From IMG/VR virus record IMGVR_UViG_3300045988_183350: DNA of 64,000 nt. One strand, 5' to 3'. The notes beneath the pieces are model-generated. The model had not been told where the DNA came from, did not search any database, and worked only from the letters and a program-made list of their open reading frames with translations. Position 1 is the stretch's first letter; each line of letters begins with the position of its first letter. The stretch is from a virus. Below, piece by piece: positions 34,303 to 63,655 of this stretch. Made by a program: the position numbers and the translations under genes.

Positions 34303-34319
34303 TAGTTTTACCTCCTGTA

Positions 34320-34898: not shown

Positions 34899-35161
34899 TG
34901 TATTTACCTCATTTCAATTTATATAATCATTATACCACAATAAATTTAAAAGTAAACCTTTTTAAGTGAATTAATGTAGCCTAAAAGTATGCTATAAACG
35001 GGCTATTGGTCGCTATTTAAAAAATAAGCAATGCTTATTGACCACAATAGCGTTTAAAAGCCCATATCAAGCATATATCGCGGCTAATCTTAAGTCTAGG
35101 CTAAATACATAGGCTGGCTTTAAAACGCGATACGGGCTTAATATGGACTATTTAAAGACGA

Positions 35162-35671: not shown

Positions 35672-35688
35672 AATTACTTCCTTTCATC

Positions 35689-36444: not shown

Positions 36445-36554
36445 TGTTTAATTCCTCATTTCTTAATTTATAACTATATTATACCAAAATATATTTAAAA
36501 GTAAACCTTTTTGTAAATAAAAAAATTGCATTAATGTGTTAATGCAATTTAAAA

Positions 36555-37277: not shown

Positions 37278-37449
37278 TACTTATGTCCTCATTTCTTAAT
37301 TTATATTTACATTATACCATAAAATTTTTAAAAGTAAACCTTTTTATAGTAAAAAATTGTACTAATGTACTAATACAATGATACAAGAAAAAGCCGTTTT
37401 AATCTACTTTTATATGGCGAAGCTATTGTTTAATGGATTAAAATGGCTT

Positions 37450-38160: not shown

Positions 38161-38171
38161 AAAAGTCCTCC

Positions 38172-38939: not shown

Positions 38940-38950
38940 AAAATCTTCCT

Positions 38951-39694: not shown

Positions 39695-39759
39695 ATGAAT
39701 TAACCTCATTTCTTATTTAGTCATTTTATTATAACACGTCTTATTTAAAAGTAAACCTT

Positions 39760-42149: not shown

Positions 42150-44636
42150 ACTTATTGATTTAAGTTTATTTTTTTTTTTATATAAAAACTTGACAAAAAA
42201 TCAGAAGCGTGCGTGAATGGGTTTTTTCATGCACAAATTTAGTGAATTAACTGGTACGTATACTGTCGAGCTAACTCTAATTATTACTGGTGAATTACAG
42301 GATATTTACTGTAAGTATTGGTAATCATACTGTTCATGATACTGTGCATGAACTTTTTTTCATGCACGAATTTAGTGAATTAACTGGTAGACATACTATC
42401 AAGATGACGTTGGTTATTACTGGTGAATACAGATAAATTACAGGATATTTACAGTAAGTATTGGTAATTATACTGTTCATGATACTGTGCGCGAACTTTT
42501 TTCGCGCACAAACTTAACCTATTACTTGATACTGTTGGTACAGGGATGATACTGGTAAAAATAGGTAAATTTTAGGGTATTTACCGTAAGTATTGGTAAT
42601 CATACTGTTCATGATACTGTGCGCGAACTAGGGTATACTTTCGTACGCGCACACTTTCGCGCACGCTTCCTCAAGTACTGGTATTCTTACGTAAATTAAC
42701 AGTGAATTTAGGTGTACTACCGTACACGCACACCTTCACGCACACCGTCCTGACTATTGGTAACCATGAGTTATGCACACTTCGTGTGCATATAAATTTA
42801 AAAAATAGTACAAAAGAATATTTTTTTAACTTTTATTTTATTAAAAAAAAAGTTGTATTTCATATAGGTTACAGCCAATTTTTGTGAATTCACGCACACT
42901 GCGTGTGCGGAAGGTAAGAGTACCAGTAATTAGAAGGTTGTGCATGAAGGTGTGCGTCTAATTTTGCTCACGCACAAATTTGAATTTGCGAGGTCGACAG
43001 CGAGCTGTCTCTCAATCAAATGGGAAATTGTGGTCCGAAAAAATTACGCGCACACTCTTACGCACACATATACTGTTTGCTTGATAGTCAATACATTGGT
43101 CAAATTTATGGTTAAAAAATAAATTTACCGTATGATAGTGTAAATTGACTGGTAATCAACTAAAGTAAAAGAGTTGTGCACGTAATTAGGTGTACTTACG
43201 TACACGCACAGTTCATGCACAGTTACGCACAGTAATTGACTGTCATATATCCGTCAAATTTATGGTTAAAAAATAAATTTACTGTATCATACCGTAAATT
43301 GGCTGGTACCCAACTAAAGTAAAGAGATTGTTCATATAATTAGGTATACTTACGTACGCGCACAACTTAATGATTTTGCGTAAATATTTGGCTAATCAAA
43401 ACACATACTCAGATAAATTATACAAAGAATTACTCGCACATATGACTAATCCTAAACGCATTACCGTATAAATTATAAGCAGATACGGTTATAACATTAA
43501 ATGATTCAAGTAAAACTTAAGACAAAGTTATTGGATGAGTTAAGACATTTAATGATACAAAAATAACTAATTGCAAAAAACCTTAAATAAGTCTAAATGA
43601 ATGATGAGGTAGAGGTATGTGGCAGGCCATAGACTATTATGTTTAATAGTTTAAAAGCAGAATTTGCTAGCACTTTGCAGTCATGCAGTAAATTTTTTCA
43701 AGAAATAATATCCTGAATTTTTTTGGGATATTATTTTTTTATTTCAAGAAACTTGTAAAAATAAATTTTTGTGCAGTAAAAGCGCACGGCAAAAAAATAC
43801 TGCACAATTTTGACTATAATGATTGAGTACCTGTAAATACAGTTAAATATTCTTTTGATTTTGTTTAATTTGATTTAATTTTATGAAATTTTCATTGTAC
43901 TGGTACTCAATACCTTTATTATACTGTGCGCTATAATAGTATACCAAAATTTGGTGCACAGTTTGGTGCACACGCTGTTGACTATTGGTACACAACAGTT
44001 ATTTGACTGTTGATTTCAGGTATACTATTATAGCGCACAACTTGGTGCACAAATATCTTTTGCTTGGTACTGTTACAATCCACACACGTTGTGTGCGGTA
44101 TTTTTTAAAATTTATATCAAAAGAATATTTTTTTATTTTTTATTTTATTAAAAAAAAAGTTGTATTTCATATAGGTTACAGCCTGTTTTCCTGTTTTGCT
44201 GCACGCAGCGCGTGCAGACATCAACTATACCAGTTAAAAGGTATGTGTGCAGTAAGTTGTGCGGTAAATTTTCTTGGTGCACAAATTTGACTTTGCCAAG
44301 TCGACAGCGCGCTGTCGCTCAATCAAAGCGTCAATCTTGAAAGACCGAAAAATAGTGCACAACTTGCTGCACAGGTATCTTGACAGTAAGAGTACCAATC
44401 CATACGGCTGGTTTTCTGTAAATCGCAATTTTATACCAAAATTCAACTGTATAGTCTGTGTACCAAATAAAAGTAAGTAAAATCCAAAAATCATGCACCA
44501 AAAATTTTTTCCTGCACGCAATATTAACCTTTACCTTGATTACCAGTAGTTCGGCTGAGATTTTTTACTGCACAACTTAATGATTTTGCTTCAATTTTTC
44601 CTGAAAAATAAAAAATAAGCAGTAAAATTTTACTGC
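42150..44636. repeat. Repeat-rich non-coding region (second origin / packaging / terminal-repeat candidate)
   Basis: No credible ORF; three copies of TGGTAATCATACTGTTCATGATACTGTGC (about 42320, 42460, 42600); many GTGCGCG/TGCACAA boxes; two palindromes GTCGACAGCG(A/C)GCTGTC (42992-43010, 44302-44320); ~100-bp unit duplicated at 43105-43205 / 43270-43370; ~70-bp unit duplicated at 42810-42880 / 44110-44180. Confidence 0.7.
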
Positions 44637-44999
44637 TTAATAATAGTAATAATATCCATTCCATTCGTACATTCCGTAACCAAATTCATCTGTGTAATTG
44701 TACCAATAACCGTCATTGCCATAATAACCATATGAAATGTAATTACCTTGATAATCATAATACTGAAATTCGTTCGGATAACTCACATAAATTGAATCCG
44801 TTGTCATTGCCTGATTATCCTCTGCATAATAATTATTGTCATTATAAGTATTCACGTTTGTGTTATTTACATATGACCATGCTGGTGGTTGATGATTTCC
44901 ACCCATTACCTCACCTTCATCAGCTGACGCTAGTACAGGCATCATTGCGGGCAATACTGATACAGTTCCGAGTGCAATTGTTTTCAACTTGTTTGTCAT
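44637..44999 (-). CDS. Secreted Tyr/Asn/Gly-rich small protein
   Basis: Signal peptide MTNKLKTIALGTVSVLPAMMPVLASA; C-terminal half is more than 30% Tyr; RBS AAAGGGGA. Confidence 0.45.
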   Translation of the reverse strand: MTNKLKTIALGTVSVLPAMMPVLASADEGEVMGGNHQPPAWSYVNNTNVNTYNDNNYYAEDNQAMTTDSIYVSYPNEFQYYDYQGNYISYGYYGNDGYWYNYTDEFGYGMYEWNGYYYYY

Positions 45000-53263: not shown

Positions 53264-53530
53264 ATGAATAATATTGACGAATTGTTATTGAAGTCGCCTG
53301 AGTATGAGATTATAGACAAAATTCGAACAAGTGTTAGTTATGTCAAAGATTTTAGACTCGGTGACGTGATTCAGTGGAAAATGGAAAGTTATAAAACTGT
53401 TGGCTCAAAACAGTTGTCGTTTACAGTGTATCTTAATGGCAAACTTTTGGCTAAACATATACCTGCCAATCGTTTAGGGACATGGCTTGAATTTTTAAAA
53501 CTAGAAGATATAGCCACTCAGGATTATTGA
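53264..53530 (+). CDS. Hypothetical protein
   Basis: 88 aa. Confidence 0.45.
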   Translation: MNNIDELLLKSPEYEIIDKIRTSVSYVKDFRLGDVIQWKMESYKTVGSKQLSFTVYLNGKLLAKHIPANRLGTWLEFLKLEDIATQDY

Positions 53531-53631
53531 GTGGTTATTTTTTTCATATAAGGCTTACTTTTTTCGCGATTCATGGTATAATAAGTATATGTAAGATAAA
53601 ACAAAATGCAAGGAAAGGATTTAAAAAAAAT

Positions 53632-54711
53632 ATGAGACCTATTATTGATTTAGGTTTTAATTACAAAGGTGTTATGTGTTTTAACGACGGTAAAGCATAT
53701 GTACTTTGTGATTCGAACCTATGGCCAATCGGCCGTGTCCAGGTATCACTACCTAAAAAATTGCATTCGATTTACCGAATGATTGGCTTTGACGAAGACG
53801 GAAATGAGACTGAGTTTACATTTAATCGCTTTATGAATGACTATGACACGCATAAAGTGATTGAGACATATAACAAAGGCAAACTTGCCAAAATGATTTC
53901 AGACGCATTTCCACGAACAATTACATATCCAAAGTGGTACACACCACGACAAAATATCGCTGAAATTAATCAGCTAGCAAAGGAAGAATTAAAAAATAAT
54001 CCAATTAATGACTATCAAGTATCACGAACACGTAAACGAATCTTTAAAGAATACCATGGTATTTTAAAATATTTGCGCAAAAATACAAAAGCCTACACGC
54101 TAAACGGAGAGTTGATTGTCAGTGCAGGGTCATTGTATTTGCCTGACGGTGCGGTGGAATACAGTTTACCAGACGTAATGGCAGATGTGAGTAAATTAGT
54201 TTGCCGTATTTCAAATCGCGAATTTGAATATACCTTAAATGCGTATGAACGCAGTATGAAGACTAATGATTTTATGTACAATCAGTTGCCGATTATTTTT
54301 AGTACTCTCGAGATAGCCGGCGATAAAATCAGCATTGAATCTCTCGACGAGCGAGACTTTTTAGCTGAGAATATCGCCGAGTTTGCCGAGAGACTCAATC
54401 TGGAATTACCTGAGGAAACAATAAAATTTAAGTGGTCGACAATCGGTGATAAAATTGTTGCAAGAAAAGTTAGAGCAACGTATACAGGTCGTGTGCCAAA
54501 GCTTGAGTATGGTAAGATTATTTCAAATAAAAATATGGCTGACACATTGCAGGCACTGAATTTGATTGACCCTCAAACACGACAGTCTGAAAATGACCAT
54601 GTTTGGGGAACGATTTTCGAAGCATTGATTTATATTGCGAACAAGCAAAAAGCGTATGAGACCATTGACAAACTCATCAAAAAATTAGTACGAACGGGGA
54701 AAGGATGGTAA
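53632..54711 (+). CDS. Hypothetical protein
   Basis: Start MRPIIDLG after promoter 53551-53583 and RBS AAGGAAAGGA (the track ORF begins at 53527, upstream of the promoter). Confidence 0.5.
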   Translation: MRPIIDLGFNYKGVMCFNDGKAYVLCDSNLWPIGRVQVSLPKKLHSIYRMIGFDEDGNETEFTFNRFMNDYDTHKVIETYNKGKLAKMISDAFPRTITYPKWYTPRQNIAEINQLAKEELKNNPINDYQVSRTRKRIFKEYHGILKYLRKNTKAYTLNGELIVSAGSLYLPDGAVEYSLPDVMADVSKLVCRISNREFEYTLNAYERSMKTNDFMYNQLPIIFSTLEIAGDKISIESLDERDFLAENIAEFAERLNLELPEETIKFKWSTIGDKIVARKVRATYTGRVPKLEYGKIISNKNMADTLQALNLIDPQTRQSENDHVWGTIFEALIYIANKQKAYETIDKLIKKLVRTGKGW

Positions 54712-54859: not shown

Positions 54860-55066
54860 ATGAATATACCATACATGGAAATTTGTTTCATGACAAATGT
54901 AATTACGTATATTTTAGTTTTTATCGGAATTTGTAAAACTTTAGGTACAGTTGCTGGAGTATTATTTATGGCAGTAATCGCATTTGTTATTTATTATTGG
55001 ATGTGTAAGGCTATTGCTGCATATATTCGCGAGGATGCGAATAAACATGCAATGATTAAAATTTAA
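54860..55066 (+). CDS. Small membrane protein, first member of the tandem small-TM-protein array (C-terminus ...AMIKI)
   Basis: Two TM segments; weak RBS; C-terminal IKI. Confidence 0.4.
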   Translation: MNIPYMEICFMTNVITYILVFIGICKTLGTVAGVLFMAVIAFVIYYWMCKAIAAYIREDANKHAMIKI

Positions 55067-55083
55067 GAAAGGAATTTTACAAT

Positions 55084-55131
55084 GAGACGATTTTTGTCAT
55101 ATATTTATTATCTTATTGGCCATTATTAGTT
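55084..55131 (+). CDS. Tiny ORF (MRRFLSYIYYLIGHY), duplicated at 55545-55592; likely a remnant/junction micro-ORF of the array
   Basis: Perfect array junction AAGAAAGGAATTTTACA-ATG upstream; identical copy about 460 bp downstream. Confidence 0.3.
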
Positions 55132-55191
55132 TTTAGTAATGATGGCTAAATAATCAATTGGAAAGATTAAACTTTAAGAAAGGAAGATTAA

Positions 55192-55512
55192 ATGGATGTC
55201 ATTATTTTATGGTTAAATATGTTTTGCCAAATCTTAGCCATATGTTCGGGAATGTTTAATATGCCATTGGCCGTAATTGTACTAATATATTTCGCTAAAT
55301 TTTGCAAATCTAAATTTAAACAAACGTATGTATTTGTTTTTGTAATTGGCATGGGTATTTATTTTATAATTAGCTCATCAGTAATTTTCTTTACTGTAAA
55401 TTATTTTATCGATTACGGTTGGCTTGTCGGGCTTATACAATTAGCATTTTTTGGAATTAATGCGCTGATTGGACGGATTTTAGCTAAGGCTGGCGATAAC
55501 ATAATCGAATAA
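55192..55512 (+). CDS. Array member (106 aa, three TM; C-terminus ...DNIIE, divergent)
   Basis: RBS AAGAAAGGAAG; hydrophobic. Confidence 0.5.
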   Translation: MDVIILWLNMFCQILAICSGMFNMPLAVIVLIYFAKFCKSKFKQTYVFVFVIGMGIYFIISSSVIFFTVNYFIDYGWLVGLIQLAFFGINALIGRILAKAGDNIIE

Positions 55513-55682
55513 CCATATTATAAACTTAAACTTTAAGAAAGGAATTTTATAATGAGACGATTTTTGTCATATATTTATTATCTTATTGGTCATTACTAAA
55601 AATTAGTAATGACCGACGTAAAAACAGTAGCTAATATGAAAGCTACGTATCACAAAATTAAAATTTAAGAACGGAGCTTAAA

Positions 55683-56000
55683 ATGAATGCGCTTTTGTTT
55701 TCGGCCATTATATTTTTAGTTATTATTAATTTATTGGCGTTAATGTTTACTGGTCGTACGTTTCTCGAAACATATAATATTGAAGACTCATTTGGATATA
55801 CCTTTGCTTTATCAGTGTTGGTTGTACTAGCGTTTGTAACAAATGCAGTCTTGGTGGTTACACTTAATGAATCTAATCAAAATGGGCTATCGTTTTTAAT
55901 ACAAATTGGCATTTTAATTACTTGTATTTTATTGATTAAATTATTTGATAATGTTGATTACAAACGTAATGTAAAGCCATATTTGCGAATTAAAATTTAA
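55683..56000 (+). CDS. Array member (105 aa; C-terminus YKRNVKPYLRIKI)
   Basis: Paralog of 56016-56324. Confidence 0.55.
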   Translation: MNALLFSAIIFLVIINLLALMFTGRTFLETYNIEDSFGYTFALSVLVVLAFVTNAVLVVTLNESNQNGLSFLIQIGILITCILLIKLFDNVDYKRNVKPYLRIKI

Positions 56001-56015
56001 GAAAGGAGACTTATA

Positions 56016-56324
56016 ATGAGTAATATGTTAAATAATATATTTACAGTATTATTTATAGCTAACCTATTGGCAACAGTGTACTCAAGTGTTGTTATTGCCA
56101 ATATATATGAAGACGATGTATGTTCGGATGAGGCAATTCCAGCCTTATACGCCGGCACATATGGCTTAACTCTATTACTTACATTAAAATTGACTGAATA
56201 TAATATTAATTTGGCATTGTTAATTCCAATTGTTGCTTCAATTGTTAATGTTGTAGTTGCTAAATTAGCTATTAGAGTCGATTACAAACGTAATGTAAAA
56301 CCATATTTGCAAATTAAGTTTTAA
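56016..56324 (+). CDS. Array member (102 aa; C-terminus YKRNVKPYLQIKF)
   Basis: Junction TTAAAATTTAAGAAAGGAG. Confidence 0.55.
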   Translation: MSNMLNNIFTVLFIANLLATVYSSVVIANIYEDDVCSDEAIPALYAGTYGLTLLLTLKLTEYNINLALLIPIVASIVNVVVAKLAIRVDYKRNVKPYLQIKF

Positions 56325-56339
56325 GAAAGGAAAATACCG

Positions 56340-56660
56340 ATGACATATTTATTATTAATTTTCATAGCAATATTTTTATGTTTTATTAATACGGCTATAA
56401 CAATGCGTGTAGCTGACAACGTTTGTGTTTCATATGAAATTAATGATGATATAAAAGTATTGACAGATTCCTTTGTAGGCGCGATTGCATTCGTTGCATG
56501 TTTAGTTTTGGTGCATTTAGGTTGGGTTTTCGATAACCTTGACTTCATTATATTAATATTAATTGGAATTTTCATTGCATGTTCCGCAGTGTCCTTGATT
56601 ACGGCTACCCCTACCTATAAAACAAATATTAAGCCAGCCCTTCATAAAATTAAACTTTAA
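56340..56660 (+). CDS. Array member (106 aa; C-terminus ...KPALHKIKL)
   Basis: TM-rich. Confidence 0.55.
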   Translation: MTYLLLIFIAIFLCFINTAITMRVADNVCVSYEINDDIKVLTDSFVGAIAFVACLVLVHLGWVFDNLDFIILILIGIFIACSAVSLITATPTYKTNIKPALHKIKL

Positions 56661-56678
56661 GAAAGGAGACTAAAAACA

Positions 56679-56963
56679 ATGACGACTATCAATTTTATCA
56701 TGCTTGGTTTATTTCTTATTGAAATAGCATTATCAGCTTACGTTTTATACAAGTCTTCTGTTAAAGACCCCGATGATATACTTTTTATGATGATTTGGCC
56801 TTTGTTCGAACTTATAAAAGCCGGGGGCTTCTTAGTGGTTTTTAAATCAGATGCAGTTTATATAGTTGTAGCTTTGTTTTACATGATTGACTTTGTAATT
56901 ATATCCGCGATTTGCGGACCTACAACTAATATAAAAAATACTTACCACAAAATTAAACTTTAA
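56679..56963 (+). CDS. Array member (94 aa; C-terminus ...NTYHKIKL)
   Basis: TM-rich. Confidence 0.55.
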   Translation: MTTINFIMLGLFLIEIALSAYVLYKSSVKDPDDILFMMIWPLFELIKAGGFLVVFKSDAVYIVVALFYMIDFVIISAICGPTTNIKNTYHKIKL

Positions 56964-56978
56964 GAAAGGAAATAAAAA

Positions 56979-57335
56979 ATGTTTGAGATTATTAAATGGT
57001 TTATGCTAATAGCCCTGCTTATTGCAATGGCTAAAGCTTCAGAAACCTTAGAAACCTTGGAAAACTTAGGACTTTTAACAAGCGATGTTTTATATGATAA
57101 TATATTAGTACTTAGTGCCTTGTTTAATTTCTTTTTATTGATTATTACAGGACTTGTGTTTGTCCTTACGTTATCATCAGGTTTTCCGTCAGTATTTTCA
57201 AATATAATGACAGTTATTATTATTGTTGAATTTATGTATCTGTTATTTGTTTATGGCAAAGTAATTCCAGGCTACAAAGGTCTTATAGCAGAGCGTTCAA
57301 CTAATAAAACTAAAGAAACCATTAAGATTAATTAA
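56979..57335 (+). CDS. Array member (118 aa; C-terminus ...KETIKIN)
   Basis: Paralog of 57355-57696. Confidence 0.55.
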   Translation: MFEIIKWFMLIALLIAMAKASETLETLENLGLLTSDVLYDNILVLSALFNFFLLIITGLVFVLTLSSGFPSVFSNIMTVIIIVEFMYLLFVYGKVIPGYKGLIAERSTNKTKETIKIN

Positions 57336-57354
57336 AAAAAGGGGGGCTAAAAAA

Positions 57355-57696
57355 ATGTTTGAACTTACTAAATTGTTTATGTTAGCTGCCTTGATGATTT
57401 GTATGGTCAGAGCTTCTGATAATTTGACCGAACTAGATAATGACTCTTTGCATTCATGGGTAACTGCTGGTATTGCCTTTATTGATTTTTTTGTAGTATT
57501 AATTACAGGGTTGATACTTGTCATTACAGCATCGTCAAATGATTTTCCGCAGGAGTTTTCAGCTATAATGACAATTGCTATCACTGTTGAATTTGTTTAT
57601 ATGTTATTTGTTTATGGTAAAGTAATTCCAGACTATGAAGGCTCTAAAGTAACGCATCCAATTAATAAAAATAAAGAAATAATTAAAATTGATTAA
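57355..57696 (+). CDS. Array member (113 aa; C-terminus ...KEIIKID)
   Basis: Paralog of 56979-57335. Confidence 0.55.
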   Translation: MFELTKLFMLAALMICMVRASDNLTELDNDSLHSWVTAGIAFIDFFVVLITGLILVITASSNDFPQEFSAIMTIAITVEFVYMLFVYGKVIPDYEGSKVTHPINKNKEIIKID

Positions 57697-57709
57697 AGGA
57701 AATTAAAAT

Positions 57710-58075
57710 ATGATGGCTTGGTTATATTGGATAATTCCTGTGATATTTGAAATTGGTTTAATATCATTAAGCATATATCTTGGATATGTGTTTAAAGTTC
57801 GATGCAATTATACAAAATTTGAAATGTATAATAAAATAGCTGAGTTTATGCTTGTACATACTGTTTATGTGTTTGCGACTATAACGATAACATTTATTTG
57901 TCAAGCAGTTGATACAATTTTTAAAGGTCAAATTGGTTTAATTATATTACCATTTATTATCGCAATTATATTCGGATTCATTTCATTTAATTGGATAAAT
58001 GTTAATTTTATTGAAATTAATGAAGAACTTGGGCGAGTGCATCGCCGAAAACTTCGTAAAGAAATTAAAATTTGA
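57710..58075 (+). CDS. Array member (121 aa; C-terminus ...RKEIKI)
   Basis: TM-rich. Confidence 0.55.
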   Translation: MMAWLYWIIPVIFEIGLISLSIYLGYVFKVRCNYTKFEMYNKIAEFMLVHTVYVFATITITFICQAVDTIFKGQIGLIILPFIIAIIFGFISFNWINVNFIEINEELGRVHRRKLRKEIKI

Positions 58076-58087
58076 AAAGGAGGCTAA

Positions 58088-58450
58088 ATGACTAATTTTA
58101 ATCAATATTTATCACTAATATTAGCAATTTTAACAGTTACAATTACTTCATTATACTTTATTAATAAGATACGCCAACTTGTAACTAGTTATAATTTTAA
58201 ATTCAACTGGAATGATAACTTTGTATCAGCATTATGCGATATATTATTTTATAGTGGATTAGCATTAGTAGTTGATGGTTATATATTTATTCAAAAAATT
58301 GAAACCTTTTCAGTGGATATAAGTCTTATACTTATTGTATTGCTTACATTATTATTTCATGTTTGGATAGTATATATCTGTAAATATGAAATTGATTTAT
58401 ATATCGATATGGCATTATATAATTTACAAAATAAATCAATTAAACTTTAA
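58088..58450 (+). CDS. Array member (120 aa; C-terminus ...NKSIKL)
   Basis: TM-rich. Confidence 0.55.
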   Translation: MTNFNQYLSLILAILTVTITSLYFINKIRQLVTSYNFKFNWNDNFVSALCDILFYSGLALVVDGYIFIQKIETFSVDISLILIVLLTLLFHVWIVYICKYEIDLYIDMALYNLQNKSIKL

Positions 58451-58465
58451 AAGGAGAACAAAAAT

Positions 58466-58813
58466 ATGTATGAAATTATAAATTGGATAATTTTTGGATT
58501 ATTCACTACAACACTTATTGCTTACAGTGCATATGCACTTAATTGTTTACTTAAAACCGAGACAGATTTTTTAGGCATGTACTTAGTATTATTTTTCATT
58601 ATGAATGTGATATGTTTATCAGCTATTACATTGTTGTCAACACACGTTAAACCCGAACAATTAAATCCGACTACATTGCTGGGTACATTTGTACTAGATA
58701 CGATTATATTATCAATGGCTATTGTAGCTTATCATGATGACATAGTTAGTGACTACAATTGGCAACAAAACCAACATAAAGACTATATTAAACAAAAAAC
58801 TATTAAACTTTAA
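58466..58813 (+). CDS. Array member (115 aa; C-terminus ...KQKTIKL)
   Basis: TM-rich. Confidence 0.55.
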   Translation: MYEIINWIIFGLFTTTLIAYSAYALNCLLKTETDFLGMYLVLFFIMNVICLSAITLLSTHVKPEQLNPTTLLGTFVLDTIILSMAIVAYHDDIVSDYNWQQNQHKDYIKQKTIKL

Positions 58814-58829
58814 AAGGAAAAATTAAATT

Positions 58830-59201
58830 ATGGCTGATATAATTTTTTGGATAATTATTGGATTACTACTAGTTAGTGATATTTCCGATAATGGATATAT
58901 CCTTTATAGAGCTTATAAATCACAAATACATAAGCATATATTCGAATATGGTTTCATTATGTTTACTTTATTAGCGTCAAGTTTAATAACATTGCTTTGT
59001 ATTGCCTTAGTGACACTCATTGGAAGTATCGTAACGGTGAATTTTGGTATTGCTACAGGCCTTATTGTTAATGCTTTGCTTGGTCTTTTGGCTATCTTTT
59101 GTATCATTAAAATGCGACATTATTTGTTTATTAGTGATTGGATAGCCGATGAGGAAAGGTATTTAAAATATAAAAACATGCGAAAACATATTAAATTTTG
59201 A
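58830..59201 (+). CDS. Array member (123 aa; C-terminus ...MRKHIKF)
   Basis: TM-rich. Confidence 0.55.
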   Translation: MADIIFWIIIGLLLVSDISDNGYILYRAYKSQIHKHIFEYGFIMFTLLASSLITLLCIALVTLIGSIVTVNFGIATGLIVNALLGLLAIFCIIKMRHYLFISDWIADEERYLKYKNMRKHIKF

Positions 59202-59213
59202 AAGGAGTTTTAA

Positions 59214-59591
59214 ATGATGGAAACATTTACAAAATGGTTTTATCTGATAGGGTCAATTATATCAGCAATTAGTATATTAACATACTTTTTGTATAAGGCA
59301 AAAACACTTAGTCCAAACGGTAAATCAGAAAGAGAATCCGTGGAATTTTATTGGTCACTATTCAGATTAGTCGTATTTCATATTCTTAGTATAATTGTGG
59401 GCATTTTAATGGTTCGCGAGCATAATCATAATAATGTAAATTTGAGTACTGATATTACGTTTTCAGGTTTAATTTTGATTTTCTTCATTACGACTGTAGC
59501 TTTGTCGCGCTTTGAAATTATTGATGATTATATTAAAAATATAACTGAAATTAAACAAAATCAACTTATGCGACAATCAATTAAAATCTGA
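59214..59591 (+). CDS. Array member (125 aa; C-terminus ...MRQSIKI)
   Basis: TM-rich. Confidence 0.55.
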   Translation: MMETFTKWFYLIGSIISAISILTYFLYKAKTLSPNGKSERESVEFYWSLFRLVVFHILSIIVGILMVREHNHNNVNLSTDITFSGLILIFFITTVALSRFEIIDDYIKNITEIKQNQLMRQSIKI

Positions 59592-59603
59592 GAGGAGTCT
59601 TAA

Positions 59604-59945
59604 ATGATTTTTAATATTATAAATTGGATAATTAGTAGCTTAGTTATATTTGCTATTATAATAAATGTTATATATACGCTTGTATATTTATATAAAATTA
59701 ATTATAGCCATACATTTGATTTTACCGACTTTTTCATAGGAAATTCTTTAAGTGTTTTTGGTTGTACCGTAAATGTATTTCTTGCTGAGCCTAATAATAT
59801 GCCACAGTTATTCGTAGCTATAATATTCAACGTAGCCTTCCTTGCACTTCCATATATTTATAGTTATGATAAGGTTTATAGTAAGTATGAAAGACAATTA
59901 AAACGATTAAAGCAAAATAAATTAAATAAAACAATTAAAATTTAA
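59604..59945 (+). CDS. Array member (113 aa; C-terminus ...LNKTIKI)
   Basis: TM-rich. Confidence 0.55.
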   Translation: MIFNIINWIISSLVIFAIIINVIYTLVYLYKINYSHTFDFTDFFIGNSLSVFGCTVNVFLAEPNNMPQLFVAIIFNVAFLALPYIYSYDKVYSKYERQLKRLKQNKLNKTIKI

Positions 59946-59959
59946 AGGAGACTTGATTA

Positions 59960-60313
59960 ATGAACACATTTTTAAATTATATTCCAGGTATCATACCTGT
60001 AGTCACGGCTGTTATTGTAATTGTTTTACATATTAAAACAAGTAAACATAACTTTGCCTTTGAAAATCAAAAGTTAAAGGTAAATGTTAATTCAAAATGG
60101 TCAATTCAATGGTTTGATTTTGCAATTATCGCTTTACATCTGACATTTATTACATTTATGAATATGTACTTTTTAGCTGGCCAGCATGATGACATTATTT
60201 TGTCAGTATTGATAAACGGATTTACTCTTTTCCTTATTGATATACAAAATCTTGTCTTTGAAATTGACATGAGTAATGATGTCATGGCCCGTATGAAAAC
60301 AATTAAAATTTAA
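59960..60313 (+). CDS. Array member (117 aa; C-terminus ...RMKTIKI)
   Basis: TM-rich. Confidence 0.55.
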   Translation: MNTFLNYIPGIIPVVTAVIVIVLHIKTSKHNFAFENQKLKVNVNSKWSIQWFDFAIIALHLTFITFMNMYFLAGQHDDIILSVLINGFTLFLIDIQNLVFEIDMSNDVMARMKTIKI

Positions 60314-60327
60314 AGGATACTTAAGTT

Positions 60328-60696
60328 ATGAACACGATTTTATCAATACTTGCAAATATAAGTATATTAGCCGTTGCATATGCTGTTCCAAAAGTAATTT
60401 TATATTGTTATGCAAGGAAATATAATACAACAGCGGAAATATTACTTAATTATTGTTCAGATTTTAAGTTTTCGATTAAATCAGTCAATATGCTTATAAT
60501 TATTTTGGCAATCAACTGTTTAATATCACCTGCAATTGGTATTGCCGCTGGCGAGGCATTTAATGATATGTTATTCGCTTCTGCTGTTTGTAATTTAGGA
60601 CTAATTATTACATTAGGAAGTTTATTTTTAGCATATGGTATATTATACATTGGTAACGCAAGCAAAAAATTGCCTAAACGGCGAATTAAAATTTAA
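60328..60696 (+). CDS. Array member (122 aa; C-terminus ...PKRRIKI)
   Basis: Paralog of 61952-62323 (shared ILAxxYxxxxVILxxxARKxxTT). Confidence 0.55.
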   Translation: MNTILSILANISILAVAYAVPKVILYCYARKYNTTAEILLNYCSDFKFSIKSVNMLIIILAINCLISPAIGIAAGEAFNDMLFASAVCNLGLIITLGSLFLAYGILYIGNASKKLPKRRIKI

Positions 60697-60709
60697 AGGA
60701 ACATAAGCC

Positions 60710-61123
60710 ATGATTACATTTTTAACAACCCTTAGTTGTATAGCGGCTGAAATATTTGTTTATATTGGTTTGTTTATTTTAGCATATAAAATTCCAAGAC
60801 TATACTTAAGTCGTTATGCAAAAAAACATGATATAACATTAAATGAGCTACTTAATGAAAATGACCTTTTTGGCAATTTATCTTATAATCTTAATTGTTT
60901 AGACGGATTTTTGATTTTAATATTCGTAGCCAATGTGATGACACTTTTTGCAACATTAGATGGCTTTTCACTTAGTGAAATTTTAGCAGGCCTAGTGCTC
61001 TATGATTCAGGTGTATTAATTATTATGGCAATTGGATTTTTCGCTGATTTAAATGACTGTCTTAAATATATCAGTGACCACCTATATAAACAATTTGTTG
61101 AACACCAACCAATTAAAATTTAA
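60710..61123 (+). CDS. Array member (137 aa; C-terminus ...HQPIKI)
   Basis: TM-rich. Confidence 0.55.
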   Translation: MITFLTTLSCIAAEIFVYIGLFILAYKIPRLYLSRYAKKHDITLNELLNENDLFGNLSYNLNCLDGFLILIFVANVMTLFATLDGFSLSEILAGLVLYDSGVLIIMAIGFFADLNDCLKYISDHLYKQFVEHQPIKI

Positions 61124-61139
61124 GAAAGGAATTTAAATT

Positions 61140-61532
61140 ATGAATATATCTTTACTAACATTCGCTGTAATATCAATTACCTGTATGGTTGCAATGGGAT
61201 ATATAATCCCATATATTGTTCTTGGATTTTATGCAATAAAGCGAAATACAACCGTAAAATCATTACATTCATTAATCAAAAAATATGCTAATGTATTTGA
61301 TTCATTTGGGGTATCAAAAGCTGAAGGTTGGGGCTGTGGAATTTTTGGAATGTTATTATATTTCTTATTTCCACTGATGTCAGTTGAGCTATCTTATAAT
61401 GATAAAATAACTCTTTTTATCATATATCTAACAATCTTGTTTGGCGCTTTATTATATATAAATATTGCATTGATTAATTCCAGTATTGATATTATTGATA
61501 AAAAATTGTCTGAACAATCCATTAAAATTTAA
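61140..61532 (+). CDS. Array member (130 aa; C-terminus ...EQSIKI)
   Basis: TM-rich. Confidence 0.55.
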   Translation: MNISLLTFAVISITCMVAMGYIIPYIVLGFYAIKRNTTVKSLHSLIKKYANVFDSFGVSKAEGWGCGIFGMLLYFLFPLMSVELSYNDKITLFIIYLTILFGALLYINIALINSSIDIIDKKLSEQSIKI

Positions 61533-61543
61533 AGGAGTAAATT

Positions 61544-61948
61544 ATGAACGTATTACTTGTTGTTATACCTTTATTAAGTATTGGTATTACAATTTATTGG
61601 AGTATAATTGCCAGTCAGGAATTTCGCAAACCGCTTGAAGCTTATTTTGAAAAATCTTTAAAAAATTCAAAATCATTTCGTAAAAAGTTTTATAAAACAT
61701 TTCCCGATATTGATTGGCCAATGATGCTAACAATGGCAGCTATGGTAATTATAGGCGACATTTTTACAATTGTTGTTTTTTATGACAACCTTGTAGAGGC
61801 TTTAATTTGTATGTTAGGATTTAATGTGATTGCCTTAAGTCTGAACTCTTTAATGATGCGTTTTTATATAGGCGGTGCCTATTTCGCGGTTAATCAATTT
61901 GAATATAACGATAAAAAGAAAATTAAGGTCAATTCGGGAGATAATTAA
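61544..61948 (+). CDS. Array member (134 aa; C-terminus ...KKKIKVNSGDN, motif followed by a short extension)
   Basis: TM-rich. Confidence 0.5.
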   Translation: MNVLLVVIPLLSIGITIYWSIIASQEFRKPLEAYFEKSLKNSKSFRKKFYKTFPDIDWPMMLTMAAMVIIGDIFTIVVFYDNLVEALICMLGFNVIALSLNSLMMRFYIGGAYFAVNQFEYNDKKKIKVNSGDN

Positions 61949-61951
61949 CGT

Positions 61952-62323
61952 ATGATTACATTTTTATTAATACTTGCTGATATTAGTATTTTAGCCATTG
62001 CATATATAAGATTTCAAGTGATTTTACATAATCTTGCACGAAAACACGGTACGACAGTACCAACATTGCTTAATAGTTGTTCAAATTTATCAGCTATTTA
62101 TGACGATAAAAATAAAATGCTTATTATGTCAATAGTTTCCAAAGTAGCTGTAAGTTTATCAGCTTTATCACAACATTATGGTCTTACTGATGCTCTGATA
62201 GGTTTTATAATCCTTGATTTAATATTAATTATTATTGATTATTATGCCGGTGAAGACGTTGATGGATTTTATGTTAAGACAAACGATGAAATTAAATTAC
62301 GCAAACGGCACATTAAACTTTAA
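61952..62323 (+). CDS. Array member (123 aa; C-terminus ...RKRHIKL)
   Basis: Paralog of 60328-60696. Confidence 0.55.
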   Translation: MITFLLILADISILAIAYIRFQVILHNLARKHGTTVPTLLNSCSNLSAIYDDKNKMLIMSIVSKVAVSLSALSQHYGLTDALIGFIILDLILIIIDYYAGEDVDGFYVKTNDEIKLRKRHIKL

Positions 62324-62339
62324 GAAAGGAAATTAAGTT

Positions 62340-62714
62340 ATGGATATACTCTTGATATTACTTATAAATATTATTGCTTTTGCAATACCATATATTTTTA
62401 TTTTTATAGTATCAAAGCATTTTGCAAATAAAAACAATATACCGTTTAAAACTGTACTAAATTTTAATGACTATGTAAAAAATACAATCGGTGGAACTAC
62501 CATATTTCAAATTGTTGTTCTTATAATTGATTTGCTTATATTCTTTTATGTGGGTGGAAATAATGATTATTCGACAACTGAAGTTTTAATTATGGTTACT
62601 TGTACTAATTTAATGCTTTTTGCACCAGCAGCATCACTAACAACGTTAGACTCAATTCGCGAAGATATGAGCAACATTAAAAAAACATTGCCTAATAAGT
62701 CGATTAAATTTTAA
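62340..62714 (+). CDS. Array member (124 aa; C-terminus ...PNKSIKF)
   Basis: TM-rich. Confidence 0.55.
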   Translation: MDILLILLINIIAFAIPYIFIFIVSKHFANKNNIPFKTVLNFNDYVKNTIGGTTIFQIVVLIIDLLIFFYVGGNNDYSTTEVLIMVTCTNLMLFAPAASLTTLDSIREDMSNIKKTLPNKSIKF

Positions 62715-62720
62715 ATAAAA

Positions 62721-62782
62721 GGTTTACTTTTATTTAAAACATGATATAATAAGAGTATAAATAAAGAAATGAGGACTTTTAT
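62721..62782 (+). promoter_or_regulatory. Conserved promoter-leader cassette (GGTTTACTTTTA..CATGATATAAT + AAATAAAGAAATGAGGA)
   Basis: Direct motif match. Confidence 0.6.
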
Positions 62783-63016
62783 ATGGTTATTTTAACAATT
62801 ATTACAATTATTATTGCACTTCTTGCACAACTTGTATTTGACATTAAAGTCATTGATTTTATGTTCAAACATGTTGGCTTGCTTATTGGTGTAGGTGTTG
62901 CTGTGATTTTGCTTCGTGTATTATTTATGGTTTTGCCTGCTCTTATGTCTCTTTTACTTAGTGTTGTCATCGCCATTGTGCTTACAAACCTAGTTGTAAA
63001 AATTATTACAAAGTAG
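62783..63016 (+). CDS. Small membrane protein (77 aa; C-terminus ...VKIITK)
   Basis: Two TM segments; follows the promoter-leader cassette. Confidence 0.5.
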   Translation: MVILTIITIIIALLAQLVFDIKVIDFMFKHVGLLIGVGVAVILLRVLFMVLPALMSLLLSVVIAIVLTNLVVKIITK

Positions 63017-63028
63017 GGGGCCGTTATT

Positions 63029-63397
63029 ATGGGATATGTTGGTGGTAACATAGTATCATTATTTATAGTTTTAGCACTTTTATTTTTAGTAACAATTTCA
63101 GCATATGCTGATGATATGACGCATCCAAAAAACCTTACATTAAAGGATTATATTTGTAAACTATCAAAGGCATTGGCAGTGCTACTGCTTGCGAATTTTC
63201 TTTTAGCAGGTCTGATAACTACCTTTAATGACTTGTGCGGTAATTTCCCAGTGGATTCATTCAGTGAGTATTTAAATCATATGATTTGGCCATTCAGTTA
63301 TTTAGCCGTGGCCCTTTGTATTGTAATTATTCATATTATTATTGCTCATACGAAAAAACAACCAAAATCCAAGACCATTAAAATTGAGGCTGACTAA
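63029..63397 (+). CDS. Array-type small membrane protein (122 aa; C-terminus ...KSKTIKIEAD)
   Basis: RBS GGGGG; TM-rich. Confidence 0.5.
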   Translation: MGYVGGNIVSLFIVLALLFLVTISAYADDMTHPKNLTLKDYICKLSKALAVLLLANFLLAGLITTFNDLCGNFPVDSFSEYLNHMIWPFSYLAVALCIVIIHIIIAHTKKQPKSKTIKIEAD

Positions 63398-63398
63398 T

Positions 63399-63629
63399 AT
63401 GTTATATTTTGCTTATATTGTATTTACAATTTATTTGATTGCAATATTTCCATATGTTGAACAAAGTTCAAAATTTAAATTTTTTATGAATTTACTGTTA
63501 CTTTTGGTAATACCGATAATCTTATTAATTGTATTTTGGTCGGTTATTTTTGTGACAAGTATTGCCGTTATGTACATTTATATTTTCGGTCGCGAATTTA
63601 TAGACGATATTAAAACCGAAAATCAATAA
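63399..63629 (+). CDS. Small membrane protein (76 aa)
   Basis: Start MLYFAYIVF (an internal Met of track ORF 63342-63629 chosen to avoid overlap); two TM segments. Confidence 0.4.
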   Translation: MLYFAYIVFTIYLIAIFPYVEQSSKFKFFMNLLLLLVIPIILLIVFWSVIFVTSIAVMYIYIFGREFIDDIKTENQ

Positions 63630-63655
63630 TACCTCTATATAGAGGTATTTTTTTT
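63628..63655 (+). terminator. Rho-independent terminator ending the membrane-protein array
   Basis: AATACCTCTATATAGAGGTATTTTTTTT. Confidence 0.7.

What the first reader, a model, noticed from the sequence alone, without database searches (positions are those of the whole stretch)
54860..63629. About 24 tandem paralogous small multi-pass membrane protein genes with a conserved basic-x-I-K-[I/L/F] C-terminus and recombinogenic junctions
Seen directly: from 55192 to 62714, 20 genes of 94-137 aa follow one another with 12-18 nt spacers and no internal promoter or terminator, so they form one long operon. It is bounded by a terminator at 63628 and preceded upstream by genes from the preceding cluster. 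Each product is dominated by 2-4 hydrophobic helices. Almost every one ends in ..[K/R]-x-I-K-[I/L/F]-stop, for example LRIKI, LQIKF, HKIKL, KSIKL, KTIKI, RRIKI, RHIKL, occasionally with a 1-4 residue extension (IKIN, IKID, IKVNSGDN, IKIEAD). The next gene's RBS (AAGAAAGGA or AAAGGAG) follows immediately. Stop codons (TAA/TGA) and codon choice vary, so the motif is constrained at protein level. Bodies are highly diverged, with a few close pairs (55683/56016, 56979/57355, 60328/61952). Three tiny ORFs in 55063-55680 (MRRFLSYIYYLIGHY twice, in a duplicated ~75-bp junction segment, and MKATYHKIKI) look like collapsed copies. Inference: the array expands and contracts by recombination at the conserved junction. 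Candidate functions include a diversified family of holin-, antiholin-, immunity- or superinfection-exclusion-like membrane proteins, decoys, or cytoplasmic-tail-tagged membrane proteins recognised by a common factor. No such array is known to me.
Basis: partly seen in the sequence, partly recalled or inferred. Interest (0 to 1): 0.8.

Follow-up and report, generated by a model that had tools for sequence, protein, structure and literature searches.

The report
Tandem array of small membrane proteins
A giant plasmid-like element of mouth streptococci carries one operon of about 21 diverged copies of an unknown three-helix membrane protein, all ending in the same three amino acids; it is real, unannotated and probably a protective repertoire, but its function is untested.

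Summary
Window 54860-63649 (+) contains 19 intact genes, 3 damaged or extended ones and 3 gene fragments of one orphan family (94-137 aa). It also holds two unrelated 2-TM genes and ends at a strong terminator. The proteins have three TM helices with an N-out/C-in topology, so the invariant Ile-Lys-[I/L/F/V] C-terminus is cytoplasmic. The family matches nothing in Pfam, NCBIfam, PHROGs, PADLOC, PDB or BFVD. A scan of 1.84 billion protein representatives found only 23 clusters, all from the same lineage. That lineage consists of 360-428 kb metagenomic contigs that fit the recently described "Inocle" elements of oral Streptococcus. Thirteen related loci keep the array collinear with 21-28 copies. 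Orthologue dN/dS is 0.2-0.5. Whole genes are gained or lost with breakpoints in the tail and junction. The basic residue before I-K is not universal. The most likely function, inferred and at low confidence, is a co-expressed repertoire of specificity-diversified membrane immunity or exclusion proteins that share a cytoplasmic handle.

The parts
53510..53538 (+). Terminator-like hairpin followed by a T-run. It is the likely upstream limit of the transcription unit.
53632..54711 (+). 359-aa soluble protein of unknown function that directly precedes the array. In related loci the first array gene starts 4 nt after it. It is not a dedicated partner: a 44-46% homologue in a distant element is followed by a different array.
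54860..55066 (+). 68-aa, 2-TM truncated family member ending ..AMIKI.
55038..55142 (+). Copy 1 of a duplicated 107-bp segment. It contains a junction motif, the 15-codon mini-ORF MRRFLSYIYYLIGHY (55082-55129) and a stem-loop.
55192..55512 (+). 106-aa family member with a premature stop. A relic in-frame ..KLKL* tail and junction follow at 55513-55545.
55506..55612 (+). Copy 2 of the duplicated segment. It contains the mini-ORF at 55552-55599 and a 14-bp stem-loop (fold z = -3.95). The segment is conserved at 84% identity in related elements.
55636..55668 (+). Gene remnant MKATYHKIKI*, which keeps the tail and junction ahead of the next gene.
55683..56000 (+). Family gene, 105 aa, tail LRIKI.
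56016..56324 (+). Family gene, 102 aa, tail LQIKF.
56340..56660 (+). Family gene, 106 aa, tail HKIKL.
56679..56963 (+). Family gene, 94 aa, tail HKIKL.
56979..57335 (+). Family gene, 118 aa, tail TIKIN (one-residue extension).
57355..57696 (+). Family gene, 113 aa, tail IIKID (one-residue extension).
57710..58075 (+). Family gene, 121 aa, tail KEIKI, TGA stop.
58088..58450 (+). Family gene, 120 aa, tail KSIKL.
58466..58813 (+). Family gene, 115 aa, tail KTIKL.
58830..59201 (+). Family gene, 123 aa, tail KHIKF. This is the member modelled with AlphaFold2: three long helices plus a C-terminal helix, pLDDT 77.5.
59214..59591 (+). Family gene, 125 aa, tail QSIKI.
59604..59945 (+). Family gene, 113 aa, tail KTIKI.
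59960..60313 (+). Family gene, 117 aa, tail KTIKI.
60328..60696 (+). Family gene, 122 aa, tail RRIKI. The exact protein is found on other metagenomic contigs.
60710..61123 (+). Family gene, 137 aa, tail QPIKI. Present only in window-type arrays.
61140..61532 (+). Family gene, 130 aa, tail QSIKI. Present only in window-type arrays; its tail is one parent of a hybrid tail seen in L007.
61544..61948 (+). Family gene, 134 aa, tail KKIKVNSGDN. I-K-V is internal and encoded ATT AAG GTC.
61952..62323 (+). Family gene, 123 aa, tail RHIKL.
62340..62714 (+). Last contiguous family gene, 124 aa, tail KSIKF. It keeps ATT AAA TTT TAA although the conserved (G)AAAGGA junction SD is absent; the next gene starts 68 nt downstream with its own AAATGAGGA site.
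62783..63016 (+). 77-aa 2-TM protein without the tail. It is conserved at this position in all related loci. Family membership is not shown.
63029..63397 (+). Family-like gene, 122 aa, 3 TM, tail KTIKIEAD. Its body is not detectably homologous to the others.
63399..63629 (+). 76-aa 2-TM protein without the tail; last gene of the unit.
63628..63649 (+). Intrinsic terminator: 9-bp stem, 4-nt loop, T8 run.

Best explanation
What is shown: this is a lineage-specific operon of 21-28 tandem paralogues of an orphan family of ~95-140-aa membrane proteins. Each has three TM helices with the N-terminus outside and the C-terminus inside. Each ends in an invariant cytoplasmic Ile-Lys-hydrophobic C-terminus. 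The operon sits on a ~360-430 kb Inocle-like extrachromosomal element of oral streptococci. Every copy has its own strong Shine-Dalgarno site, so all copies are probably made together. The duplications are old (10-35% identity between paralogues), yet each copy is kept under purifying selection. Elements differ by whole-gene gains and losses, produced by homologous exchange across the ~20-30-nt conserved tail, stop, extended-SD junction.

What is inferred: the array is a simultaneously expressed repertoire of specificity-diversified membrane immunity or exclusion proteins. Each paralogue neutralises a different membrane-acting agent, such as a pore-forming bacteriocin or another membrane toxin of competitors, through helix-helix contacts inside the bilayer. 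The common cytoplasmic I-K-hydrophobic end is a shared handle for one cytosolic factor, for example a protease or adaptor that sets the proteins' level. The same codons also double as part of the next gene's translation-initiation and recombination junction.

The confidence given is for the inferred functional reading. The structural and evolutionary description stands at about 0.9.
For: Real, expressed-type genes:
- ORFs, SD sites and spacing.
- Orthologues in 13 loci with dN/dS of 0.2-0.5.

Topology:
- Three TM helices in 37 of 40 groups.
- Mean K+R counts are 0.08 (N-terminus), 3.2 (loop 1), 0.5 (loop 2) and 5.1 (tail).
- The AF2 model has three long helices plus a C-terminal helix.

Orphan family confined to one element lineage.

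Repertoire pattern: the array is collinear across elements with individual paralogues present or absent.

Recombination at the junction: a hybrid tail at the 31/[34,38]/32 indel.

The motif is array-specific.

Protein-level signal at I and K:
- Only ATT/ATC/ATA and AAA/AAG variants occur.
- I-K-V is kept with AAG GTC.
- The tail is kept on the last array gene.

Analogies from the literature:
- Immunity genes occur in tandem arrays of non-identical copies, and multiple tsaI copies sit next to a membrane-depolarising toxin (PMC10765036).
- Small cationic three-TM immunity proteins such as AucIA exist (PMC8538875).
- A three-residue C-terminal tag (LPF) suffices for ClpXP degradation in S. mutans, and the MuA tag RRKKAI is a basic run ending in a hydrophobic residue (PMC5143411).
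- Inocles are proposed to raise host adaptability and carry many cell-envelope genes (PMC12340149).
Against: - No toxin, bacteriocin, ABC transporter or T7SS gene lies within the window or within 10 kb downstream.
- There is no sequence or fold similarity to any known immunity, exclusion or holin family.
- The proteins are only mildly cationic: mean net charge +1.1, positive in 24 of 40 groups.
- Orthologue divergence is uniform along the protein, so no specificity region stands out.
- Part of the tail conservation is at nucleotide level, so the 'shared handle' may be weaker than it looks.
- Expression was not tested.
Confidence: 0.33

Rival explanations
1. The conserved I-K-hydrophobic end is mainly a nucleotide-level feature. 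Under this reading ATTAAANTTTRA plus (G)AAAGGA(G) forms the translation-initiation and coupling region of the next gene and the homology patch for unequal recombination or gene conversion. The amino acids would simply be what those bases encode. The proteins could still have any membrane function.
For: - Third codon positions are conserved beyond codon usage: ATT in 32 of 35 groups against 0.57 expected (P 1e-5); NTT in 33 of 35 (P 2e-5); Leu is almost always CTT although TTA makes up 49% of Leu codons in the gene bodies.
- The conserved block runs without a break from the Ile codon through the stop into the SD, with a single free base in the middle.
- The core TTAAA-N-TTTAA is a palindrome (read).
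- Junction relics survive where the upstream gene is gone, at 55166-55177 and 55525-55536.
- Crossovers map to this patch.
- TAAGAAAGGAG is complementary to the 3' end of Firmicute 16S rRNA (textbook knowledge, not tested here).
Against: - Ile and Lys never change to another amino acid in 40 groups or 141 unique proteins, whereas synonymous ATC, ATA and AAG variants do occur.
- The last array gene keeps ATT AAA TTT TAA without the conserved junction SD after it; the next gene starts 68 nt downstream.
- The 61544 gene keeps I-K-V internally with different codons.
- Conservation starts abruptly at a codon boundary rather than decaying gradually.
- A 5+1+5 palindrome in an A/T-only 11-mer has about a 1 in 32 chance of arising by accident (own estimate).
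Confidence: 0.25
2. The array is an entry-exclusion or superinfection-exclusion battery. Each small inner-membrane protein would block DNA entry from a different related conjugative element or phage, as TraS/Eex-type proteins do for conjugative plasmids and Sie/Imm-type proteins do for phages.
For: - Inocles encode VirB4 and VirD4, so conjugative transfer and competition between elements are plausible (PMC12340149).
- The proteins are small polytopic membrane proteins with a cytoplasmic C-terminus.
- The repertoire varies between elements.
- The window also carries phage-type features: a cluster of 21 tRNA genes and a GOLLD RNA.
- From my own recollection, not checked here: in SXT/R391 Eex proteins, cytoplasmic C-terminal residues set exclusion specificity.
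Against: - There is no homology to any known exclusion protein.
- Known systems use one or two exclusion genes, not more than 20.
- Only four Inocle taxa are described (PMC12340149), which is far fewer than the number of paralogues.
- In this family the C-terminus is the invariant part, not the specificity-bearing part.
Confidence: 0.15
3. The genes encode holin/antiholin-like or other membrane-permeabilising proteins, or small membrane toxins, kept in check by tail-dependent proteolysis.
For: - The size (94-137 aa), three TM helices, N-out/C-in topology and charged C-terminal tail match the textbook description of class I holins.
- Several weak BFVD neighbours are annotated as holins.
- C-terminal tripeptide degrons exist in streptococci (PMC5143411).
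Against: - All fold matches are non-significant, with E of at least 0.7.
- No adjacent endolysin or lysis cassette was found, and the flanking genes are unrelated.
- Twenty to 28 co-expressed holins on a stably maintained plasmid-like element would be lethal or pointless.
- Purifying selection on each of many diverged copies does not fit a timing device.
Confidence: 0.1
4. The region is not made of genes. It would be a non-coding tandem repeat that happens to contain open frames.
For: None found, apart from the AT-rich, repeat-like junctions.
Against: - ORFs are intact, and their order and length are conserved in 13 independent loci.
- dN/dS is 0.14-0.6 in most groups.
- Each gene has a strong SD and an ATG at the right distance.
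- The three-TM hydropathy pattern is consistent, with positive-inside charge bias.
- The AF2 model is confident.
Confidence: 0.01

Closest known systems
Tandem arrays of non-identical immunity genes next to polymorphic toxins in Firmicutes (T7SSb: multiple tsaI copies beside the membrane-depolarising toxin TspA; EsaG/DUF600 arrays) (PMC10765036)
   Same: Many non-identical paralogues stand head to tail in one orientation. Copy number and content vary between strains. TsaI proteins, like these, are membrane proteins that counter a membrane-acting toxin.
   Different: No LXG/WXG toxin, toxin fragment or T7SS gene lies nearby. There is no homology to TsaI or DUF600. Copy number (21-28) is higher. 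The invariant C-terminal tripeptide has no counterpart.
Small multi-TM immunity proteins of class II, leaderless and circular bacteriocins (AucIA/AurI with three TM helices and cationic; LagC and LciM with four TM; As-48D1) (PMC8538875)
   Same: Comparable size, several TM helices, little extracellular exposure and no conserved catalytic residues. Function by contacts within the membrane is a plausible shared mode.
   Different: Those genes sit singly beside their bacteriocin and transporter genes, whereas here there are more than 20 copies and no bacteriocin locus within reach. There is no sequence similarity. This family is only weakly cationic overall.
Class I holins (3 TM, N-out/C-in, charged C-terminus)
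   Same: Length, TM number, predicted topology and basic cytoplasmic tail.
   Different: There is no lysis cassette, no holin Pfam/PHROG match and no significant fold match. The family occurs in 21-28 copies instead of one or two.
C-terminal tripeptide or hexapeptide degrons for ClpXP (LPF in S. mutans SsbA/B; RRKKAI of MuA; ssrA ..LAA) (PMC5143411)
   Same: A very short, strictly C-terminal, cytoplasm-exposed motif ending in a hydrophobic residue, often preceded by basic residues.
   Different: The sequence I-K-[ILFV] is not a known degron, the substrates would be integral membrane proteins, and no degradation data exist.
Cassette arrays with repeated recombination sites (integron attC arrays; Borrelia vls silent cassettes with 17-bp direct repeats; the latter from my own recollection)
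   Same: Gene-sized units are separated by a short conserved sequence at which units are gained and lost.
   Different: No integrase or dedicated recombinase was found next to the array. The conserved patch is only ~20-30 nt and overlaps the coding end and the SD. Every unit has its own start and SD, so none is silent. The one mapped exchange looks like ordinary homologous exchange between paralogous 3' ends.
Inocle giant extrachromosomal elements of oral Streptococcus (Kiguchi et al. 2025, PMC12340149)
   Same: - GC content is ~32%.
- Related contigs are 360-428 kb.
- The window carries Streptococcus-type envelope genes (LPXTG, PcsB-CHAP, choline-binding mutanase, GH66 dextranase) and tRNA genes.
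- IS elements are frequent.
- The family is found in metagenomes (Logan, ENA, JGI); one cluster member is also listed under NCBI, on a ~1-kb contig.
   Different: The InoC marker gene was not looked for here. The paper does not mention this array, and its 329 'cell wall/membrane' protein families are almost all unannotated.

Membership tests
Class I holins | Small protein with three TM helices, N-out/C-in, and a charged C-terminal cytoplasmic tail | tested here: met
   Hydropathy scan and positive-inside counts; AF2 helices.
Class I holins | Gene lies in a lysis cassette next to an endolysin, usually in one or two copies | tested here: not met
   Flanking genes are a 359-aa unknown, a 446-aa unknown, a GH66 dextranase and an adhesin. 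The family is present in 21-28 copies.
Class I holins | Sequence or fold match to a described holin family | tested here: not met
   No Pfam or PHROG hit. The best BFVD holin hits have E above 0.9.
Class I holins | Forms lethal membrane lesions at a set time | not testable with these tools
   Needs expression experiments.
Bacteriocin immunity proteins (membrane type) | Small membrane-embedded protein, typically cationic | tested here: inconclusive
   The proteins have three TM helices and are 94-137 aa, which fits. Net charge is only +1.1 on average and positive in 24 of 40 groups.
Bacteriocin immunity proteins (membrane type) | Encoded beside the cognate bacteriocin and export genes | tested here: not met
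   None found in the 64-kb window or 10 kb downstream. The rest of the ~400-kb element was not examined.
Bacteriocin immunity proteins (membrane type) | Homology to a known immunity family | tested here: not met
   Pfam and NCBIfam give only sub-threshold noise.
Bacteriocin immunity proteins (membrane type) | Confers specific protection | not testable with these tools
   Needs challenge assays.
Polymorphic-toxin immunity arrays (T7SSb/CDI type) | Tandem non-identical paralogues with strain-variable content | tested here: met
Polymorphic-toxin immunity arrays (T7SSb/CDI type) | Linked full-length or orphan toxin modules (LXG, WXG100 and similar) | tested here: not met
   No such ORF or Pfam hit within the array or its flanks.
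Integron-like cassette array | Conserved recombination site between cassettes | tested here: inconclusive
   A conserved ~20-nt junction with a palindromic core exists. The one mapped exchange, however, spans ~35 nt of paralogous tail, as in homologous recombination.
Integron-like cassette array | Adjacent integrase or site-specific recombinase and a single promoter driving promoterless cassettes | tested here: not met
   No recombinase lies next to the array in the window. The resolvase and TnpB genes seen in L005 and L009 belong to inserted IS elements.
Inocle elements | Giant (245-395 kb average) circular element, ~32% GC, Streptococcus-like genes, not found in the >3000 oral isolate genome datasets the authors searched | tested here: met
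   - Window GC is 0.25-0.41, mostly ~0.33.
- Related contigs reach up to 428 kb.
- Streptococcus-type domains are present.
- Hits come from Logan, ENA and JGI; one cluster member is also listed under NCBI, on a ~1-kb contig.
- Circularity was not tested.
Inocle elements | Carries the InoC marker gene (454 aa, PF13814) | not tested
   It was not looked for in the 64-kb window, and the full contigs are not readable with these tools.
ClpXP C-terminal degron | Motif at the extreme C-terminus and exposed to the cytoplasm | tested here: met
   Topology prediction. The motif is terminal in 35 of 40 groups.
ClpXP C-terminal degron | Tag-dependent degradation by ClpXP or another AAA+ protease | not testable with these tools
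   Needs GFP-IKI reporter assays in wild-type, clpX and ftsH strains.

The most novel reading that the evidence does not exclude
A previously unknown kind of plasmid-borne 'membrane immunity arsenal'. More than 20 co-expressed three-TM proteins would each be tuned to a different membrane-acting competitor weapon or invading element. All would be marked by one cytoplasmic C-terminal tripeptide (I-K-hydrophobic) that a single cytosolic factor reads to control their abundance or assembly. The tripeptide's own codons would form the recombination and translation junction that lets the arsenal gain and lose members.
Probability: 0.2. Interest if true: 0.8.

Novelty: new variant of a known kind. Interest (0 to 1): 0.6.

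Why it matters
Inocle-type elements are reported in about three quarters of human mouths, yet most of their genes have no known function (PMC12340149). This array takes up ~9 kb in every element of one lineage that was examined. Each copy is kept under purifying selection, and the content varies gene by gene between elements. That is the pattern expected of a conflict or protection repertoire.

If the array is such a repertoire, it would explain one concrete benefit these elements give their streptococcal hosts. The invariant three-residue cytoplasmic end gives a simple experimental handle: tag transfer to GFP, peptide pull-down and point mutants. The junction is also a compact natural case in which coding, translation-start and recombination constraints overlap.

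Tried and rejected
- **HMM libraries.** Pfam, NCBIfam, PHROGs and PADLOC scans of array members and neighbours gave only sub-threshold noise.
- **Phage genomes.** A megablast of the array against 50,697 phage records found no match.
- **Fold search.** Foldseek with the AF2 model found nothing below E 0.7 in PDB or BFVD. The afdb50 library was unavailable.
- **Junction scans.** Scanning GTDB genomes and IMG/VR with the 19-nt junction returned only single, scattered chance hits and no arrays.
- **The 359-aa upstream gene as reader of the tail.** This was rejected. The protein has no PDB or Pfam relatives. Its homologue in a more distant element is followed by a different, soluble paralogue array.
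- **+1 or -1 frameshifting or read-through joining neighbouring genes.** This was rejected. The stop-to-ATG distances (3 and 11-19 nt) put neighbours in no consistent frame.
- **Specificity region.** Identity between orthologues is uniform at 0.84-0.89 across TM helices, loops and tail.
- **IS elements targeting the junction palindrome.** This is not supported. The IS607-like insertion in L005 lies inside the 5' end of the next gene.

Full report
**1. The observation**

The + strand of window 54860-63649 is filled with short ORFs, each preceded by a strong Shine-Dalgarno site and an ATG. From 55192 to 62714 there are 20 genes of 94-137 aa. From 55683 onward they are 11-19 nt apart, apart from one 3-nt spacing.

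Seventeen of the 24 + strand ORFs of at least 60 aa in the array end in I-K-[I/L/F/V]. None of 90 such ORFs elsewhere in the window does. Three more array genes carry the motif followed by 1-7 extra residues.

At DNA level ATTAAANTTTRA occurs 17 times, all on the + strand between 55055 and 62714. Shuffles give 1.8 expected and none of 100 reaches 17.

A clean intrinsic terminator (9-bp stem, T8) closes the unit at 63628-63649, and a terminator-like hairpin at 53510-53538 precedes the 359-aa gene upstream. Promoter-like matches inside the array are at chance level.

The three mini-ORFs are real relics. Two copies of MRRFLSYIYYLIGHY sit in a duplicated 107-bp segment (86% identity), each followed by a stem-loop. 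MKATYHKIKI is a collapsed gene that keeps only its tail and junction. Gene 55192-55512 has a premature stop eight codons before a relic ..KLKL* end.

**2. The proteins**

A hydropathy scan finds three TM segments in 37 of 40 orthologue groups. The 4-residue N-terminus and the ~11-residue second loop hold almost no Lys or Arg (0.08 and 0.5 on average). The ~26-residue first loop and ~25-residue tail hold 3.2 and 5.1. By the positive-inside rule the topology is N-out/C-in, so the I-K-hydrophobic end is cytoplasmic.

AlphaFold2 on a 63-sequence family alignment gives three long helices (residues 2-30, 37-72, 74-102) and a less confident C-terminal helix. Mean pLDDT is 77.5.

Paralogues are 10-35% identical, with three closer pairs. 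In a leave-one-out profile search with the last six residues removed, 14 of 20 bodies are detected at 2 or fewer of 500 shuffles. A few members (56679, 61544, 63029) share little beyond architecture and tail.

The residue two positions before Ile is basic in only 16 of 40 groups, so the invariant part is I-K-hydrophobic.

**3. The host genome**

The window has ~33% GC. It carries 21 tRNA genes at 15263-20103 and a GOLLD RNA at 19391-19848 enclosing tRNA-Tyr. Its recognisable genes include:
- a choline-binding alpha-1,3-glucanase
- two PcsB-type CHAP hydrolases
- an LPXTG coiled-coil protein
- a flotillin
- a DUF5906 primase-helicase (all)

Downstream of the array in related contigs lie a GH66 dextranase and an LPXTG collagen-binding adhesin.

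Family members are found in metagenome assemblies (Logan, ENA, JGI), on contigs up to 428 kb. One cluster member is also listed under NCBI, on a ~1-kb contig.

These traits match the "Inocle" elements of oral Streptococcus (PMC12340149): ~395 kb, 32% GC, LPXTG and cell-wall genes, IS-rich, lost on liquid culture and not found in the >3000 oral isolate genome datasets the authors searched. I did not test for the InoC marker, so the assignment is an inference. That paper does not mention this array.

**4. How widespread and how known**

Pfam, NCBIfam, PHROGs and PADLOC give nothing above threshold. Foldseek against PDB and BFVD gives nothing below E 0.7.

A full HMMER scan of 1.84 billion cluster representatives with the family profile finds 23 proteins. 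All are 105-137 aa, and all end in IK[ILFV] or, in two cases, IKI plus one extra residue. They are the paralogues of this same array in related elements. The family is an orphan confined to one element lineage.

A more distant element has a 44-46% homologue of the 359-aa upstream gene in the same synteny. The slot after it holds five acidic soluble paralogues instead. The 359-aa protein is therefore not a dedicated partner of the array, and the array is specific to one lineage.

**5. Evolution**

In 13 related loci the array is collinear and has 21-28 copies. Individual paralogues are present or absent, and IS605/IS607-type insertions occur in some loci. Orthologue dN/dS is mostly 0.14-0.6. 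This excludes a non-coding repeat and shows that each diverged copy is kept by selection.

Indel boundaries fall in the tail and junction. In L007 the tail of the 60328-type gene is a hybrid of the window's 60328 and 61140 tails, exactly where the two genes 60710 and 61140 are missing. The mechanism looks like ordinary homologous exchange between similar 3' ends. No recombinase gene is associated with the array.

**6. Protein-level or nucleotide-level constraint**

Both apply.

For a nucleotide-level component:
- With one junction per orthologue group, conservation runs from the Ile codon through the stop into the purine-rich SD, with one free base in the middle, the first base of the last codon.
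- Ile is ATT in 32 of 35 groups, although ATT accounts for 57% of Ile codons in the gene bodies (P 1e-5).
- The last codon is NTT in 33 of 35 groups (P 2e-5). Leu is almost always CTT although TTA is the common Leu codon.
- Junction relics persist without an upstream gene.

For a protein-level component:
- Ile and Lys never change to another residue in 40 groups, while ATC, ATA and AAG variants do occur.
- The last array gene keeps the tail although no SD follows directly.
- The 61544 gene keeps I-K-V internally as ATT AAG GTC.

TAAGAAAGGAG matches the complement of the Firmicute 16S 3' end (textbook knowledge). The core TTAAA-N-TTTAA is a palindrome, but in an A/T-only 11-mer this has roughly a 1 in 32 chance of arising by accident, so I give it little weight.

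**7. Mechanism**

The following points are shown:
- many diverged copies are individually maintained
- all copies are equipped for simultaneous translation
- extracellular exposure is minimal
- the cytoplasmic end is common to all
- gene content varies between elements

This pattern fits a standing repertoire rather than dosage amplification or one-at-a-time variation.

The best-fitting inference is a set of membrane immunity or exclusion proteins, each matched to a different membrane-acting agent. Supporting analogies are the tandem immunity arrays of T7SSb systems, including multiple tsaI copies against the depolarising toxin TspA (PMC10765036), and small three-TM immunity proteins such as AucIA (PMC8538875). 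The shared tail could be read by one cytosolic factor. Three-residue C-terminal ClpXP tags exist in streptococci (LPF), and MuA's RRKKAI is a basic run ending in a hydrophobic residue (PMC5143411).

Against this reading, no toxin or bacteriocin locus lies within reach, the family has no detectable homology to known immunity proteins, it is only weakly cationic, and orthologue divergence reveals no specificity region. I put this functional reading at about one in three. The rivals are a mainly RNA/DNA role for the motif, an entry or superinfection exclusion battery, and holin-like proteins.

**8. Verdict**

This is a real, well-delimited, previously undescribed gene family and array in a recently discovered and very common human-associated element. 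The kind of thing, a tandem paralogue repertoire of small membrane proteins, is known. The family, the copy number and the invariant tripeptide overlapping the junction are new. Function is untested.

Noticed in passing
window 19391-19848 (+), within the tRNA cluster 15263-20103: A GOLLD RNA (Rfam RF02032, 165.7 bits against a gathering score of 150) encloses tRNA-Tyr (19460-19536). It sits inside a run of 21-22 tRNA genes. This is a phage-like trait on a plasmid-like element.
   Followed up: no
window 33133-39709 (-): Nine tandem soluble paralogues fall into two size classes (169-192 aa and 236-255 aa). All end in a hydrophobic-x-[D/E/N/K]-L tail (AFDL, SFEL, NFDL, FTEL, FTKL, SVNL). Unlike the IKI array, the tail codons vary (TTT GAT TTA, TTC GAA CTA, TTT GAA CTG, GAA TTG), so this motif looks protein-level. 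There are no Pfam, PHROG or PADLOC hits.
   Followed up: partly
window 42150-44630: A ~2.5-kb stretch just downstream of the DUF5906 primase-helicase gene has no credible ORFs. It is packed with direct repeat families (80-nt units x3 about 135-145 nt apart, 120-nt x2, 224-nt x2, 25-nt x4) and a 67-nt inverted repeat. It may be an iteron or origin region or a set of non-coding RNAs.
   Followed up: partly
window 1032-4005: A 3-kb stretch of very low GC (25-28%) has no ORF above 58 aa. Its nature is unknown.
   Followed up: no
window 55082-55142 and 55552-55612: A 15-codon mini-ORF (MRRFLSYIYYLIGHY) is followed immediately by a stable stem-loop (14 bp in the second copy, fold z -3.95). It occurs twice in the window, and the segment around the second copy is conserved at ~84% in related elements, between the upstream sub-array and the main array. 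It could be a leader-peptide or attenuator-like or processing element rather than mere debris.
   Followed up: partly
L005 280-2254 and 12321-14208; L007 2128-3525; L008 1018-2415; L009 9916-11803; L010 824-2167: IS605-type (OrfB/TnpB, with Y1 transposase in L005) and IS607-type (resolvase plus TnpB) elements are inserted in or beside the array in several related elements. The L005/L009 insertion truncates the 5' end of the last array gene.
   Followed up: partly
L169 12323-14611 (also L170, L171): In a more distant relative of the element, the syntenic slot after the 359/365-aa gene holds a secreted Lys/Asp-rich 195-aa protein. Five tightly packed acidic soluble paralogues (144-158 aa) follow it in place of the membrane array. 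Tandem paralogue arrays seem to be a general habit of these elements.
   Followed up: no
window 44637-44999 (-): A 120-aa protein with a signal peptide has an extremely Tyr/Asn/Gly-rich mature part that ends in YYYY. No function is known.
   Followed up: no
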